This document shows positions 66-6,305 of a stretch of 10,260 nucleotides of DNA, one piece after another (positions within the stretch are counted from its first letter, which is position 1; each line of letters begins with the position of its first letter). The notes under the pieces are model-generated. The model had not been told where the DNA came from and ran no database searches. It saw only the letters and a list, made by a program, of their open reading frames with translations. This stretch comes from an uncultured Methanosarcinales archaeon. GTDB lineage: Archaea > Nanobdellota > Nanobdellia > Woesearchaeales > JAGVZT01. Location of the stretch: assembly GCA_964419615.1 (NCBI GenBank), contig CAYQPU010000042.1, positions 1-10,260 of the forward strand, read 5' to 3'. Made by a program: the position numbers and the translations under genes.

Positions 66-416
66 ATAGTAAAATACAAGAAGGGTCAGAAAATTAAAGG
101 GATAAAAAACAAACCCTTATTGAAAAAGAAATTAGCAATCGTTAGAAAGAAACGACTGGCTTATGCTGGTGGAAAAACTGGTAATTATACAATTACTATT
201 GGTGCTGCAAAAAAAGTAGCAAAGAAAAAAAAGGCTAAAAGAAAAGTAGTCAGAAAGAAAAAACCAGTTAGAAGAAAACCGGCTAAAAGAAAAGTAGTCA
301 GAAAGAAAAAACCGGTAAAAAGAAAAAAACCTGCTAAAAGGAAAGCTCCTAAAAGAAAACCTGCTAAGAGAAAACCAGCTAGAAGGAAACCGGCTAAAAG
401 AAGACGAAGGCGGTAA
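66..416 (+). CDS. Lys/Arg-rich histone H1-like basic protein (116 aa from ATA 66; 98 aa from TTG 120)
   Basis: About half of the residues are K/R, there are no D/E, PAKRK-type motifs repeat, and it ends in RRRRR. The frame is open from 36. SD + ATA gives MVKYKKGQKIKG..., whereas TTG 120 has no SD. Function is inferred from composition only. Confidence 0.75.
   Translation: MVKYKKGQKIKGIKNKPLLKKKLAIVRKKRLAYAGGKTGNYTITIGAAKKVAKKKKAKRKVVRKKKPVRRKPAKRKVVRKKKPVKRKKPAKRKAPKRKPAKRKPARRKPAKRRRRR
233..313 (+). repeat. Exact 33-bp direct repeat (233-265, 281-313; 48-nt period) within the basic protein gene
   Basis: GGCTAAAAGAAAAGTAGTCAGAAAGAAAAAACC occurs twice and encodes AKRKVVRKKKP; more degenerate PAKRK units follow. 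Confidence 0.9.
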
Positions 417-3760: not shown

Positions 3761-4246
3761 ATGAAACACAGAAAAAGCAGAAAGAAGAAAAAAAAGGTGA
3801 ATAAAGTAGATACTAAATCACAAACATGGTCAATTGATGTTTTACTAGCGGCAACTTTGTTTGTTGGAGGTGTTGTAATTTTCTTTTATGTGCTTTCGTT
3901 TTCAGGAGATTCAAAAGCAGTTCAGGAATTGAGTGTTGAATCTGAGTCGATTCCTGAAAGTGTGATTGCACAGGATGAAAGATCTGTTTCATCCACCACT
4001 TTTGTTATTGGTAATAAGGTTGATGAAGAAAGACTAATTAGTGTTAGTGGAAAATCCTATGAAGATATTAAATCACAGATAGGAGTATTTAGTGATTTTT
4101 GCATTCATTTTGAGGATGATGACGGAAATCTGATTAATATTGGTGATGATCCATTAAACCCAAGGTATTCAATTGGAGATCCAAAATTAAATTTTACTAT
4201 TATTGACAAAGATGGGCAGCAACTAGTTGTTCAGTGTGGGACTTAG
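3761..4246 (+). CDS. Class III signal peptide pilin-like protein (Q-x-WS-x-D variant); start uncertain (ATG 3761, GTG 3797 or GTA 3806)
   Basis: TKS|QTWSIDVLLAATLFVGGVVIFFYVL hydrophobic helix after a basic residue; FCIHFED...CG Cys pair in the C-terminal half. Confidence 0.78.
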   Translation: MKHRKSRKKKKKVNKVDTKSQTWSIDVLLAATLFVGGVVIFFYVLSFSGDSKAVQELSVESESIPESVIAQDERSVSSTTFVIGNKVDEERLISVSGKSYEDIKSQIGVFSDFCIHFEDDDGNLINIGDDPLNPRYSIGDPKLNFTIIDKDGQQLVVQCGT

Positions 4247-5505
4247 TTTTCGACAGGAGTTACTTTTTTAGAAGTTGTTTTATTGTTTTTTAGTATAAAA
4301 TCTTTTAGTTTTGCTGTGATTGTTGCTAAGATTATACTATAAAACATAAACACAAGTATTAAGTTTAACAATAATGGAACCCCTTCAAGCTGGTGTAAAA
4401 CGCTTCCTGAATCTGAATACAAGGTAGTTAATGCAAACGCTATAGTTGCAACTGCTATTCCTTTTGCAACATTCAAGGTCATGAATAATTTTTCTCTGAA
4501 ATTTAGTTCATTCTTAAAGACCAAATCAACAGTTACAAATCGAATTATTAGATAAACAAAAAATAATAATAGTGATCTAAAGAAGAAATCAAACTCTAAT
4601 GGAATTTCTGTTATTAGTCCTATGAATACAAAGACTAGTATCTGTAAAGCAGTTGCTAGTGTTGAAGAGAATTTTTGCAGTTTTTCTTTTTTGTCTTTTC
4701 TTGCTATAGAAAAATTTCCAAAATATAATCCTAAAGTGCTTACTGCCAATACACCATTTCCATTTAGGTTTTTTGCCAAAATATATGTTAGAAGTGCTGC
4801 GGTTAGAACTGTCAATGAACTGAGTTCATCTGAGTATCTTTTTCTCATGAATTTAAAGAAAACTAGACCTACTAATACTCCTGCACCTATTCCTGTTACA
4901 AATTGCTGGATAAATGGGAGGATTTGCATTGCTATTTTGTCCCAGAGTCCACCTGAACCCAAATTCACCATTAAATCTATTACTATAAATGGGAGCAGGG
5001 CCATAAATGGTGTGTTAAAGACAGCTTCTATTTGGAGAATCTTGCTTAGTTTAGTTTTGCTGTCTTTAAATGCGATGATTGCTGCTGATGGATCAGTACC
5101 GCAGTTAATGAATGCAAATATTAGTGCTAAAGCTAATCCTAAAAAGACGTTTGTGTTGAATTTGAATAATAAATATGCGCCTGCTGTAAGAAATACTGCA
5201 TTTAACCCTATAAAACCAATGACCACTTTTAATACCTGGGATGATACTCTGTCAACATCCCTTAGTTTGAATTTTGAAGTTCCTTCAAATACTATCATTA
5301 TTAGCGCGAGTAAGGCCACAGCTGCCAGGAATTCTGTAGGGAAGAAGACTAATTTTTCTCCGTCAACTGTGAGTTGATTTAGTGCAATTCCAAAAAATAT
5401 CAAAAGTAAAAAGTTAGGTATCTTAAGATAGTCGCTTAGAATTGAACATAGGATTCCTACTAAGAATATTACTGCGATTATTGTTAATGCACTTAGTGCT
5501 GCGAT
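4243..5505 (-). CDS. NhaP/CPA1-family cation:proton antiporter-like membrane protein (420 aa from ATC 5505)
   Basis: Many TM helices; LFEG-like VFEGT, GTDP and EAVFNTP motifs. The frame extends 34 codons upstream of TTG 5403 as (M)AALSALTIIAVIFLVGILCSILSDYLKIPNFLL, a typical CPA1 first helix plus the KIP motif. SD GAGGTT at 5517-5512. Confidence 0.88.
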   Translation of the reverse strand: MAALSALTIIAVIFLVGILCSILSDYLKIPNFLLLIFFGIALNQLTVDGEKLVFFPTEFLAAVALLALIMIVFEGTSKFKLRDVDRVSSQVLKVVIGFIGLNAVFLTAGAYLLFKFNTNVFLGLALALIFAFINCGTDPSAAIIAFKDSKTKLSKILQIEAVFNTPFMALLPFIVIDLMVNLGSGGLWDKIAMQILPFIQQFVTGIGAGVLVGLVFFKFMRKRYSDELSSLTVLTAALLTYILAKNLNGNGVLAVSTLGLYFGNFSIARKDKKEKLQKFSSTLATALQILVFVFIGLITEIPLEFDFFFRSLLLFFVYLIIRFVTVDLVFKNELNFREKLFMTLNVAKGIAVATIAFALTTLYSDSGSVLHQLEGVPLLLNLILVFMFYSIILATITAKLKDFILKNNKTTSKKVTPVEN

Positions 5506-5522
5506 TTTACTAACCTCTTTTT

Positions 5523-6254
5523 TTAATCATCATCAAAAAATGATTGCAATGATCTATATTCTTGTTTTTCTTTTGGTATTTCTAGTTCAATAAAAGCCTT
5601 TAAGAACTTTTTCCTACTCGGCTTTTTATATGTTTTGTATAATTTCTTTGCTAAAGTCTCTGGTTGTGAAAGTTGAGAGTTTTGAAGTATTTGGATTAAT
5701 AGATTCTCAAATGCTTTTTTTTCTACAATTTTTTGAGTCTGGGAGTCTTGTAAAAGGTTTTTGAGAAGTTTTCTTTTTGTTGGATGTTTTGTGTTTTTGA
5801 TTAAAAGTGCTAGGTTATCTGGGTCTTCGAATAAGACATGTCTAATTAATTGTAGTGTTCTTAATACCGGATCTTGGTAGTTTTGCATGTCAATGTTTTT
5901 TGTTACTTGGTATAGAATATCTTGGAATTGTAGGATAGTTATTCCTTGGATGTTTTGCTCGACTGTTGTAACTAGAACTTTTTCATATTCACCTGTGTAC
6001 CCTAAATGTTGTTTTAGGTAGGATTTTATTGCTTTTTCTATTCCTGGCTTATTGAATTGCTCTTTTATTGCTCTTGGAGAATTAGGTTGCATTGATACAG
6101 AACAGTTTACTTCAATATGCTGGATGATTGGATCTTTTGTTGCTTTTATAGCTAGAATGTCAATTACTCTGTTTTTACCTGCATTTAGATTATTAATTAC
6201 TCCAAATCCATTTTGGTTTAGCCAGATGTTTACTATTTTCTTTTCTGGAAATAT
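5523..6254 (-). CDS. Hypothetical protein with N-terminal PD-(D/E)xK nuclease-like motif (243 aa from ATA 6254)
   Basis: The 54-codon extension upstream of ATG 6092 reads (M)FPEKKIVNIWLNQNGFGVINNLNAGKNRVIDILAIKATKDPIIQHIEVNCSVS, with SD GGGGTG at 6267-6262. The fold assignment is from motif recognition only. Confidence 0.75.
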   Translation of the reverse strand: MFPEKKIVNIWLNQNGFGVINNLNAGKNRVIDILAIKATKDPIIQHIEVNCSVSMQPNSPRAIKEQFNKPGIEKAIKSYLKQHLGYTGEYEKVLVTTVEQNIQGITILQFQDILYQVTKNIDMQNYQDPVLRTLQLIRHVLFEDPDNLALLIKNTKHPTKRKLLKNLLQDSQTQKIVEKKAFENLLIQILQNSQLSQPETLAKKLYKTYKKPSRKKFLKAFIELEIPKEKQEYRSLQSFFDDD

Positions 6255-6294
6255 TGTAATCCACCCCTTATAGTGTAATATTTAAGATTTCAAT

Positions 6295-6305
6295 ATATAA
6301 ATGTT
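6295..6305 (-). promoter_or_regulatory. BRE/TATA promoter of the nuclease-like/antiporter operon
   Basis: Minus strand AACATTTATAT, identical to the EndoQ and MFS promoter 11-mers. Confidence 0.65.

What the first reader, a model, noticed from the sequence alone, without database searches (positions are those of the whole stretch)
5401..5529. The antiporter's first TM helix is reachable only from an ATC start
Between the in-frame TGA (5529-5527) and TTG 5403 there is no ATG, GTG, TTG or CTG. Yet these codons encode a full hydrophobic helix plus the KIP motif typical of CPA1 N-termini. The 17-nt gap after the upstream stop reads TAA-AAAAA-GAGGTT-AGTAAA-ATC-GCA-GCA, essentially only an SD and spacer. 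This is the strongest single case in the window for a non-canonical start.
Basis: partly seen in the sequence, partly recalled or inferred. Interest (0 to 1): 0.75.

Follow-up and report, generated by a model that had tools for sequence, protein, structure and literature searches.

The report
Conserved AUC/AUU start of archaeal antiporter
A membrane ion-transporter gene of a tiny DPANN (Woesearchaeota) archaeon really does begin at the rare start codon ATC, and the same odd start (ATC or ATT) has been kept at the same spot in four related genera while about a hundred other relatives use ATG, TTG or GTG there.

Summary
The minus-strand Na_H_Exchanger (PF00999) gene 4243-5505 has no ATG/GTG/TTG/CTG between the in-frame TGA (5529-5527) and TTG 5403. 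Those 34 codons encode the first transmembrane helix and the K-I-P-N motif.

- **Same start as relatives.** The helix aligns residue-for-residue with the N-terminus of the solved PaNhaP structure and with about 100 orthologues. These all start with ATG/TTG/GTG at or within a few codons of this position, most behind a GAGGT Shine-Dalgarno.
- **One clade carries ATY.** Only one well-supported clade does: G000 ATC, G001 ATC, G002 ATC, G004 ATT. These are four genera from four independent assemblies. Each keeps a GAGG 5-8 nt upstream and an in-frame stop or the end of another gene just before it.
- **The helix is translated.** Codons 2-34 show 10-17 synonymous differences per pair. The first canonical codon falls at non-homologous places (18, 22, 32, 35).

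Sequencing error, a downstream start and a frameshift fusion are therefore rejected.

In this clade the gene is always the tightly packed second gene of a two-gene operon. Genome-wide, AUH starts are sporadic (well under 1% solid cases) and usually species-specific (purA, gene X). The likely mechanism is SD-directed initiation by Met-tRNAi at a weak near-cognate codon. This is a new, unusually well conserved member of a known kind. Other notes of this scan flagged AUH starts only within this genome.

The parts
5503..5505 (-). ATC initiation codon of the antiporter (codon 1)
   Evidence: It aligns with the ATG/TTG/GTG start of about 100 orthologues and with the ATC/ATC/ATT of the three clade relatives. 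PaNhaP residue numbering matches, 9 to 9.
5513..5517 (-). Shine-Dalgarno core GAGGT, with its T 8 nt before the ATC
   Evidence: The genome's SD-to-start distance peaks at 7, range 6-10. A GAGG is kept 5-8 nt before the AUY in all four clade members.
5506..5522 (-). 17-nt intergenic spacer between the gene X stop and the antiporter start
   Evidence: No Rfam family and no unusual RNA fold, z = -0.6.
5404..5502 (-). Codons 2-34: first transmembrane helix plus the K-I-P-N motif, upstream of the first canonical codon
   Evidence: Pairwise synonymous differences are 10-17 and nonsynonymous 4-16 among the four clade members. The region is covered by PF00999 and by the PaNhaP alignment.
5401..5403 (-). 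TTG (codon 35), the start chosen by gene callers; judged not to be the real start
   Evidence: It is TTA in G001. The first canonical codons lie at non-homologous positions (35, 18, 32, 22) in the four genomes. Database proteins of the whole clade are truncated at different internal positions.
4243..5505 (-). Complete Na_H_Exchanger/NhaP-like gene, 420 codons plus stop
   Evidence: PF00999 at 93.7 bits against a cut-off of 26.2. Orthologues in 30 of 41 related genomes.
5527..5535 (-). Three consecutive in-frame TGA codons closing the antiporter frame upstream; they overlap the GAT-GAT-GAT codons of the gene X C-terminus
5523..6254 (-). Upstream operon partner, gene X: about 243 aa, no family match, itself starting at ATA 6254-6252
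   Evidence: It is conserved directly upstream of the antiporter in all four clade genomes, with gaps of 17, 20, 4 and 1 nt. The ATA aligns with ATG in G001 and G002 and with TTG in G004, and 54 conserved codons precede the first canonical ATG. Pfam finds nothing.
6261..6267 (-). SD-like GGGGTGG, ending 6 nt before the gene X ATA
   Evidence: GGGTGG is conserved in G001 in front of its ATG.
6294..6301 (-). TTTATATA box, the inferred archaeal promoter of the X-antiporter operon
   Evidence: The same box sits at the same distance in G001. Promoter function is inferred only.

Best explanation
The antiporter is translated from AUC 5505-5503.

Proposed mechanism: the small ribosomal subunit is positioned by the GAGGT Shine-Dalgarno 8 nt upstream, and initiator Met-tRNA pairs with AUC despite a third-position mismatch. 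The protein therefore starts Met-Ala-Ala-Leu-Ser, and the Met is probably removed before Ala. It contains the full first transmembrane helix.

History: the ATG-to-ATY change happened once, in the ancestor of a family-level Woesearchaeal clade. In that clade the gene lies as the second gene of a two-gene operon, 1-20 nt behind gene X. The change has been kept since, as ATC in three genera and ATT in one.

Likely purpose: the weak codon sets a low translation rate for the membrane protein relative to its co-transcribed partner.

Shown here:
- No other start is available.
- The helix is coding and homologous to the N-terminus of relatives.
- The AUY and its SD are conserved.
- The operon context is conserved.

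Inferred:
- Decoding by Met-tRNAi.
- Low initiation efficiency.
- The selective reason.
For: 1; no canonical start lies between the in-frame stops and codon 35.
2. PF00999 covers residues 13-398. PaNhaP (4CZ8) aligns 9 to 9, so relatives of known structure begin at the same place.
3; across about 100 distinct orthologous loci, every one outside the clade has ATG/TTG/GTG at 0 to -6 codons from the aligned position (mostly 0 or -1), most behind a GAGGT-type SD. The clade has ATC, ATC, ATT, ATC with no canonical codon within 6 codons either side, and only 4-7 open codons upstream in three of the four.
4; the four AUY genes and five database proteins whose annotations are N-truncated form one clade (SH-aLRT 100).
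5; codons 2-34 carry 10-17 synonymous differences per pair. First canonical codons are at non-homologous positions.
6; among 743 G000-G001 orthologue pairs this is the only one with a shared, coding-like extension that lacks a canonical start in both.
7; gene X ends 17, 20, 4 and 1 nt upstream in the four genomes. A tight same-strand upstream ORF is found in 4 of 4 AUY loci against 8 of 98 canonical-start loci.
8. Literature: AUC/AUU/AUA initiate at about 0.1-3% of AUG in E. coli and still insert Met (10.1101/063800). An ATT start attenuates EbpA expression (PMC4447247).
Against: - There is no protein-level or ribosome-footprint evidence, and all genomes are metagenome-assembled.
- The initiator tRNA could not be inspected. 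Only 10 tRNA genes are detectable in the assembly held.
- aIF1, which discriminates against non-canonical codons in Sulfolobus (as cited in PMC6237735), is present, so initiation at AUC should be inefficient. Whether that suffices for a functional transporter is unknown.
- Other near-cognate codons exist inside the helix (ATA9, ATC10), though none has an SD.
- The four AUY genes are one evolutionary event. The link to operon position is therefore a single observation, not a statistic.
Confidence: 0.8

Rival explanations
1. Initiation at the AUY depends mainly on termination-reinitiation. Ribosomes finishing gene X restart at the nearby near-cognate codon, so the antiporter is made only when X is translated. 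The SD serves to hold the post-termination subunit.
For: Gene X ends 1 nt (G002), 4 nt (G004), 17 nt (G000) and 20 nt (G001) before the AUY. In G004 and G002 the X stop codon lies inside or right after the SD. A tight upstream ORF is found in 4 of 4 AUY loci against 8 of 98 others. This kind of coupling is documented in archaea (PMC6728339).
Against: In Haloferax and E. coli, gaps of about 20 nt almost abolish this coupling (PMC10666635), and G000 and G001 have 17 and 20 nt. A good SD at normal spacing is kept in all four, as expected for de novo initiation. An internal promoter cannot be excluded.
Confidence: 0.2
2. The helix is not translated. The protein starts at the first canonical codon (TTG 5403 here), as gene callers assume.
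For: Database entries P0001 and P0003-P0010 are annotated this way.
Against: Codons 2-34 are under purifying selection. The canonical codons sit at non-homologous positions (35, 18, 32, 22) inside helix 1 or 2. TTG 5403 is TTA in G001, and no SD precedes it. The truncation would delete helix 1, which the PaNhaP structure and all other orthologues possess.
Confidence: 0.03
3. ATC is a sequencing or assembly error, or a recent inactivating mutation of an ATG, making the gene a pseudogene in the making.
For: G000 does carry species-specific ATG-to-ATA changes elsewhere: purA and gene X.
Against: ATY is found at the same site in four independent assemblies from four genera. The genes are intact over about 400 codons at 55-79% identity, with synonymous change dominating between the closest pair.
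Confidence: 0.01
4. The antiporter is made as a fusion with gene X by programmed frameshifting or readthrough, so it needs no start codon of its own.
For: The gene order is invariant and tight. An A-run follows the X stop in G000.
Against: The frame offset between X and the antiporter differs among the genomes: -1 in G000 and G001, +1 in G004 and G002, from the coordinates. In-frame stops lie 4-7 codons before the AUY in three genomes, and no conserved slippery site exists. Orthologues elsewhere are free-standing with their own start.
Confidence: 0.02
5. This lineage has generally relaxed start-codon selection, so the antiporter's AUC is simply one of many AUH starts with no gene-specific meaning.
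For: Other AUH starts in G000 are supported by homology: purA ATA against ATG in three relatives, and gene X ATA against ATG/ATG/TTG. Where one species has a clean canonical start, the other has ATA/ATT/ATC in 12 of 335 and 8 of 348 cases, against 1 and 4 for second-position variants.
Against: There is no genome-wide excess of SD motifs at start spacing before in-frame AUH codons. Most aligned AUH cases have a canonical codon within a few codons. Only the antiporter shows an AUH start shared between species. aIF1 is present in all family genomes.
Confidence: 0.3

Closest known systems
Bacterial genes with conserved AUU starts: infC (IF3) and pcnB in E. coli
   Same: A near-cognate AUH codon behind a normal SD serves as the sole start of a functional gene and is maintained by selection. 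It is decoded by initiator tRNA at low efficiency (10.1101/063800 for the two confirmed E. coli cases and the efficiencies).
   Different: The infC AUU is an autoregulatory sensor of IF3, the factor that rejects such codons (my knowledge). Here the gene is a membrane transporter in an archaeon whose fidelity factor is aIF1, and no feedback loop is evident. The codon is AUC or AUU rather than only AUU.
Enterococcus faecalis ebpA ATT start (PMC4447247)
   Same: Gene callers annotated a downstream ATG. The true start is a rare ATT, and it was shown to attenuate expression of an envelope protein within an operon. That is the same logic as proposed here.
   Different: It is bacterial and experimentally proven. 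Here there is only comparative evidence, but conservation extends across genera.
Inferred ATT start of Asgard archaeal tubulin AtubA (PMC13394414)
   Same: An archaeal gene whose annotated N-terminus lacks an essential structural element. A rare ATT at proper RBS spacing restores it, and the inference rests on alignment and structure.
   Different: That was a single genome, and the passages read report no test of whether the ATT is conserved in relatives. The present case shows persistence of AUY through family-level divergence and a switch from ATG in the outgroups.
Termination-reinitiation coupled gene pairs of archaea and bacteria (PMC6728339, PMC10666635)
   Same: The gene is the distal member of a tightly packed same-strand pair. 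In G004 and G002 the SD lies within the last codons of gene X; in G000 and G001 it lies in the spacer just after the X stop.
   Different: Typical coupled pairs overlap by 4 or 1 nt and use ATG/GTG. Here the gaps are +1 to +20 nt and the start is AUY.
PaNhaP / MjNhaP1, archaeal CPA1 Na+/H+ antiporters (PDB 4CZ8, 4CZA)
   Same: Same Pfam family, same length and same N-terminal register. The TDP motif is retained.
   Different: Only weak sequence similarity (E about 3e-12). The Asp of the Asn-Asp ion-binding motif is Thr here and in all 18 aligned relatives.

Membership tests
Genes initiated at a near-cognate AUH codon (NCBI table 11 alternative starts; infC/pcnB/ebpA type) | No ATG/GTG/TTG is available upstream of N-terminal sequence that is homologous to the start of relatives | tested here: met
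Genes initiated at a near-cognate AUH codon (NCBI table 11 alternative starts; infC/pcnB/ebpA type) | Shine-Dalgarno at functional spacing before the AUH codon | tested here: met
   The T of GAGGT is 8 nt upstream, against a genome peak of 7 and range 6-10. A GAGG is kept in all four clade members.
Genes initiated at a near-cognate AUH codon (NCBI table 11 alternative starts; infC/pcnB/ebpA type) | The non-canonical codon is conserved in orthologues rather than being a private mutation | tested here: met
   ATC/ATC/ATC/ATT in four genera forming one clade.
Genes initiated at a near-cognate AUH codon (NCBI table 11 alternative starts; infC/pcnB/ebpA type) | The protein N-terminus (Met, or processed Ala2) is observed at that codon, and expression is lower than with AUG | not testable with these tools
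   Needs N-terminal mass spectrometry, toeprinting or reporters.
CPA1 / NhaP-type cation:proton antiporter (Pfam PF00999) | Na_H_Exchanger domain above the gathering score | tested here: met
   93.7 bits against 26.2, residues 13-398.
CPA1 / NhaP-type cation:proton antiporter (Pfam PF00999) | Thr-Asp (TDP) motif of helix 5 | tested here: met
   T137-D138-P139 are invariant in the alignment and align to the PaNhaP ATDP.
CPA1 / NhaP-type cation:proton antiporter (Pfam PF00999) | Asn-Asp ion-binding motif of helix 6 | tested here: not met
   N164-T165-P166 are invariant in all 18 aligned sequences, where PaNhaP has N-D-P. The role of the Asp is from my knowledge of PaNhaP/MjNhaP1.
NCBIfam potassium/proton antiporter equivalogs (NF003716 and relatives) | Score above the curated cut-off | tested here: not met
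   92.6 bits against a cut-off of 355.
Termination-reinitiation coupled gene pair | Stop of the upstream gene overlaps, or lies within a few nt of, the downstream start | tested here: inconclusive
   Gaps of 1 and 4 nt in G002 and G004, but 17 and 20 nt in G000 and G001. About 20 nt nearly abolishes coupling in model organisms (PMC10666635).

The most novel reading that the evidence does not exclude
The AUY start is a selected translational control device in an archaeon. It would be the first near-cognate start codon shown to be conserved across genera in Archaea. It would fix the output ratio of a two-gene operon. It might also make synthesis of an ion transporter responsive to initiation fidelity, through aIF1 activity or ionic conditions, in analogy to the infC AUU / IF3 circuit of bacteria.
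Probability: 0.3. Interest if true: 0.65.

Novelty: new member of a known kind. Interest (0 to 1): 0.5.

Why it matters
Reviews of archaeal translation list only AUG, GUG and UUG as start codons (PMC7531240). The one ribosome-profiling study of an archaeon set its near-cognate initiation sites aside (PMC7261190). This case offers a natural, evolutionarily validated AUC/AUU start with an ordinary SD, which makes it a ready substrate for testing how aIF1/aIF2 handle near-cognate codons.

It also has a practical consequence. Every database entry seen for this clade of transporters that is not cut by a contig end (P0001, P0003-P0005, P0007-P0010) is annotated 16 to 53 residues short, lacking part or all of helix 1 and in one case more. 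That would mislead topology and structure predictions. Gene callers restricted to ATG/GTG/TTG will repeat the error in DPANN genomes.

Tried and rejected
- **Alternative genetic code (TGA as sense).** Three consecutive in-frame TGAs precede the SD, and they overlap the GAT-GAT-GAT codons that end gene X. Relatives have TAA there. Rejected.
- **Genome-wide recoding of start codons.** SD-anchored tallies and SD-distance histograms show no excess for in-frame ATA/ATT/ATC. Rejected as a general system.
- **Loss of aIF1 as a cause of relaxed fidelity.** PF01253 is present in all 8 family genomes and in 40 of 41 relatives. Rejected at the presence/absence level.
- **Variant initiator tRNA.** Only 10 tRNA genes are detectable in the assembly and none has a CAU anticodon. 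Untestable.
- **RNA element in the junction.** No Rfam hit, and the fold is no better than shuffles.
- **Frameshift fusion with gene X.** The frame relation is not conserved.
- **Identity of gene X.** No Pfam or NCBIfam match. A nuclease-like motif was only eyeballed and is not claimed.
- **DNA of five further clade members.** The one extra metagenome locus of the clade (L021) is cut by the contig end two codons into the gene.
- **Thymidine-kinase-like ATA candidate.** It turned out ambiguous. G001 has TTG-GTG upstream, and G000 has a TGA between that GTG and the body of the gene.
Full report
**Observation.**
On the minus strand the frame of the Na_H_Exchanger gene is closed by three TGA codons (5535-5527). 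It then reads TTA AAA AAA GAG GTT AGT AAA, then ATC (5505-5503), then GCA GCA and onward. With ATG/GTG/TTG as starts, the ORF begins only at TTG 5403 and gives 386 aa. With the full table-11 start set it begins at ATC 5505 and gives 420 aa.

Between the stops and TTG 5403 the only start-like codons are ATC1, ATA9, ATC10, ATA13, ATC18, ATT22 and ATA29. There is no CTG. The upstream gene ends at TAA 5525-5523. The 17-nt gap contains GAGGT (5517-5513), whose T lies 8 nt before the ATC. In this genome the same distance for first-canonical start codons (ATG/GTG/TTG) peaks at 7, with a 6-10 window.

**The 34 codons belong to the protein.**
- Pfam PF00999 matches residues 13-398 of the ATC-started protein, beginning at profile position 4.
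- The solved Pyrococcus abyssi NhaP (4CZ8/4CZA) aligns from its residue 9 to residue 9 here. A homologue of known structure therefore starts at the same place.
- The organism is a Woesearchaeota-type DPANN archaeon, judging from the names on close hits. The assembly is 1.48 Mb in 64 contigs.

**Comparative test.**
I collected orthologous loci from related genomes, JGI metagenomes and GTDB species representatives. I then mapped the codon aligned with position 1 in each. In about 100 distinct loci outside one clade there is an ATG, TTG or GTG at 0 to -6 codons from that position, mostly 0 or -1. Most follow an (A)GAGGT(G) motif.

Four loci are different:

| Genome | Sequence at the start |
|---|---|
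| G000 | GAGGTTAGTAAA-ATC |
| G001 (same genus; Suakin Deep MAG JAANXH01) | GAGGCAAGAAA-ATC |
| G004 (CAYUHF01) | GAGGTGAAAAA-ATT |
| G002 (JBDRLT01) | GAGGATAAA-ATC |

None has a canonical codon within 6 codons either side. In three of the four an in-frame stop lies only 4-7 codons upstream, and those codons are not near-cognate.

A maximum-likelihood tree puts these four in one clade with SH-aLRT 100 on a branch of 0.5. The clade also holds five database proteins whose annotated N-termini are missing residues: four are truncated at assorted internal Met codons and one (P0006) is a partial entry cut at a contig end. The sister lineage has ATG. The annotated proteins of all close homologues (54-78% identity) are N-terminally short. 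More distant ones (48% or less) start with the full helix.

The ATG-to-ATY change therefore occurred once and has persisted through divergence to 55% amino-acid identity, including one ATC/ATT interchange.

**The helix is translated.**
Among the four genes, codons 2-34 differ by 10-17 synonymous and 4-16 nonsynonymous changes per pair. The closest pair shows 18 identical, 11 synonymous and 4 nonsynonymous codons. The first canonical codon is TTG35, ATG18, GTG32 and ATG22 in the four genomes, which are non-homologous positions inside helices 1-2. TTG 5403 is TTA in G001. No downstream start is conserved. Only codon 1 with its SD is.

**Context.**
In all four genomes a homologous gene of about 240 codons (gene X, no family match) lies directly upstream on the same strand. 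It ends 17, 20, 4 and 1 nt before the AUY. In G004 its TGA lies inside GAGGTGA, and in G002 its TAA is one base before the ATC.

A same-strand upstream ORF ending within 25 nt is seen in 4 of 4 AUY loci but in only 8 of 98 canonical-start loci. Several of the latter carry a TTAATAAA-type box upstream instead. Because the four share ancestry, this is one event, not four.

The frame offset between X and the antiporter is not conserved: -1 in two genomes and +1 in two (coordinates). That argues against a frameshift fusion.

**Is this a genome-wide habit?**
SD-anchored counts and SD-distance histograms in G000 show no excess for in-frame ATA/ATT/ATC over other codons.

I fetched 1.07 Mb of G001 and compared 743 reciprocal-best pairs.
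- Where one species has a clean canonical start, the other carries ATA/ATT/ATC in 12 of 335 (G000) and 8 of 348 (G001) cases.
- Second-position variants of ATG occur in 1 and 4 cases. Most of the AUH cases have a canonical codon a few codons away.
- The antiporter is the only pair in which both species share a coding-like N-terminal extension with no canonical start. The other apparent "extensions" are conserved untranslated leaders with essentially no synonymous change, or antisense shadow frames.

Solid species-specific cases do exist.
- purA of G000 has ATA exactly where G003, G002 and G006 have ATG, and its GDEGKGK loop lies 79 codons before the first ATG. G006 is unpublished, but the claim stands on G003 and G002 alone.
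- Gene X of G000 has ATA 6254 where G001 and G002 have ATG and G004 has TTG, with 54 conserved codons between that ATA and the first ATG.

AUH starts in this lineage are therefore sporadic, well under 1% for solid cases, and mostly young. The antiporter's is old and maintained. aIF1 (PF01253) is present in all family members. The initiator tRNA could not be examined, because only 10 tRNA genes are detectable.

**Mechanism.**
The best-supported reading is ordinary SD-directed initiation by Met-tRNAi at a weak near-cognate codon.
- In E. coli, AUA/AUC/AUU initiate at about 0.1-3% of AUG and still place Met at the N-terminus. Only infC and pcnB are confirmed natural cases (10.1101/063800).
- An ATT start was shown to attenuate EbpA in Enterococcus (PMC4447247).
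- For archaea, the review literature lists AUG/GUG/UUG (PMC7531240).
- aIF1 is reported to discriminate against non-canonical codons (cited in PMC6237735).
- About 30% of alternative initiation sites in Haloferax ribosome profiling were near-cognate but were set aside (PMC7261190).
- One ATT start has been inferred for an Asgard tubulin (PMC13394414).

Termination-reinitiation may contribute in G002 and G004. However, about 20 nt nearly abolishes it in model organisms (PMC10666635), so it is unlikely to be the whole story in G000 and G001. The purpose, low output of a membrane protein relative to its operon partner, is inference.

**Other checks.**

**Verdict.**
This is a new and unusually well conserved member of a known kind, near-cognate start codons, in a domain where such starts are barely documented. 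Other notes of this scan flagged AUH starts only within this same genome.

Noticed in passing
window 6252-6254 (-), gene 5523-6254: The upstream operon partner (gene X) also lacks a canonical start in G000. ATA 6254 sits behind GGGGTGG and aligns with ATG in G001 and G002 and with TTG in G004. Between that ATA and the first ATG (6092) lie 54 conserved codons. Gene callers give a 189-aa protein instead of about 243 aa.
   Followed up: yes
window 5011-5016 (-), codons 164-165 of the antiporter: The Asn-Asp ion-binding motif of NhaP-type antiporters is Asn-Thr here. It is invariant Asn-Thr-Pro in all 18 aligned Woesearchaeal relatives, while the Thr-Asp-Pro motif is kept. The transport chemistry of this whole group may differ from canonical CPA1.
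   Followed up: partly
G000:C26:10581-11804 (+) = L134:501-1724: The adenylosuccinate synthetase gene starts at ATA, two codons after a TGA and behind GAGGTGA. Relatives G003, G002 and G006 have ATG at the aligned codon, so this is a young ATG-to-ATA change in an enzyme of purine nucleotide synthesis.
   Followed up: yes
G000:C3:4580-5467 (-) = L135:501-1388: In a P-loop (thymidine-kinase-like) gene, G001 has TTG-GTG-CTT-GAA-ATA and G000 has GTG-GTT-TGA-ATA. A stop now separates the old start from the body of the gene, and ATA follows GAGGTGG. This could be restart at ATA, readthrough or decay.
   Followed up: partly
G000:C3:36665-37396 (-) = L136:501-1232: A repeat-rich protein has an apparent signal peptide (a basic stretch, then a hydrophobic run ending Ala-Ser-Ala) that begins at ATT behind AGAGGGGG. 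The first canonical codon is 90 codons later.
   Followed up: no
window 66-416 (+): A small lysine-rich protein: GAGGTG followed by ATA at 66, with the first canonical TTG (120) 18 codons later and no SD of its own. Its G001 counterpart was not recovered.
   Followed up: no
window 6424-6447 (+): TAGGTG lies 7 nt before ATT 6424, which is in frame with and 7 codons upstream of the called ATG 6445. It is ambiguous which codon is used.
   Followed up: no
G000 whole assembly: Only 10 tRNA genes are detectable with ARAGORN or Rfam RF00005 in a MAG scored 99% complete. Eight of the 10 contain introns, and no Met/initiator tRNA was found.
   Followed up: partly
window 4622-5377 (+): A 251-codon open frame lies antisense to the antiporter. 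It is a mechanical shadow ORF with no evidence of being a gene.
   Followed up: no
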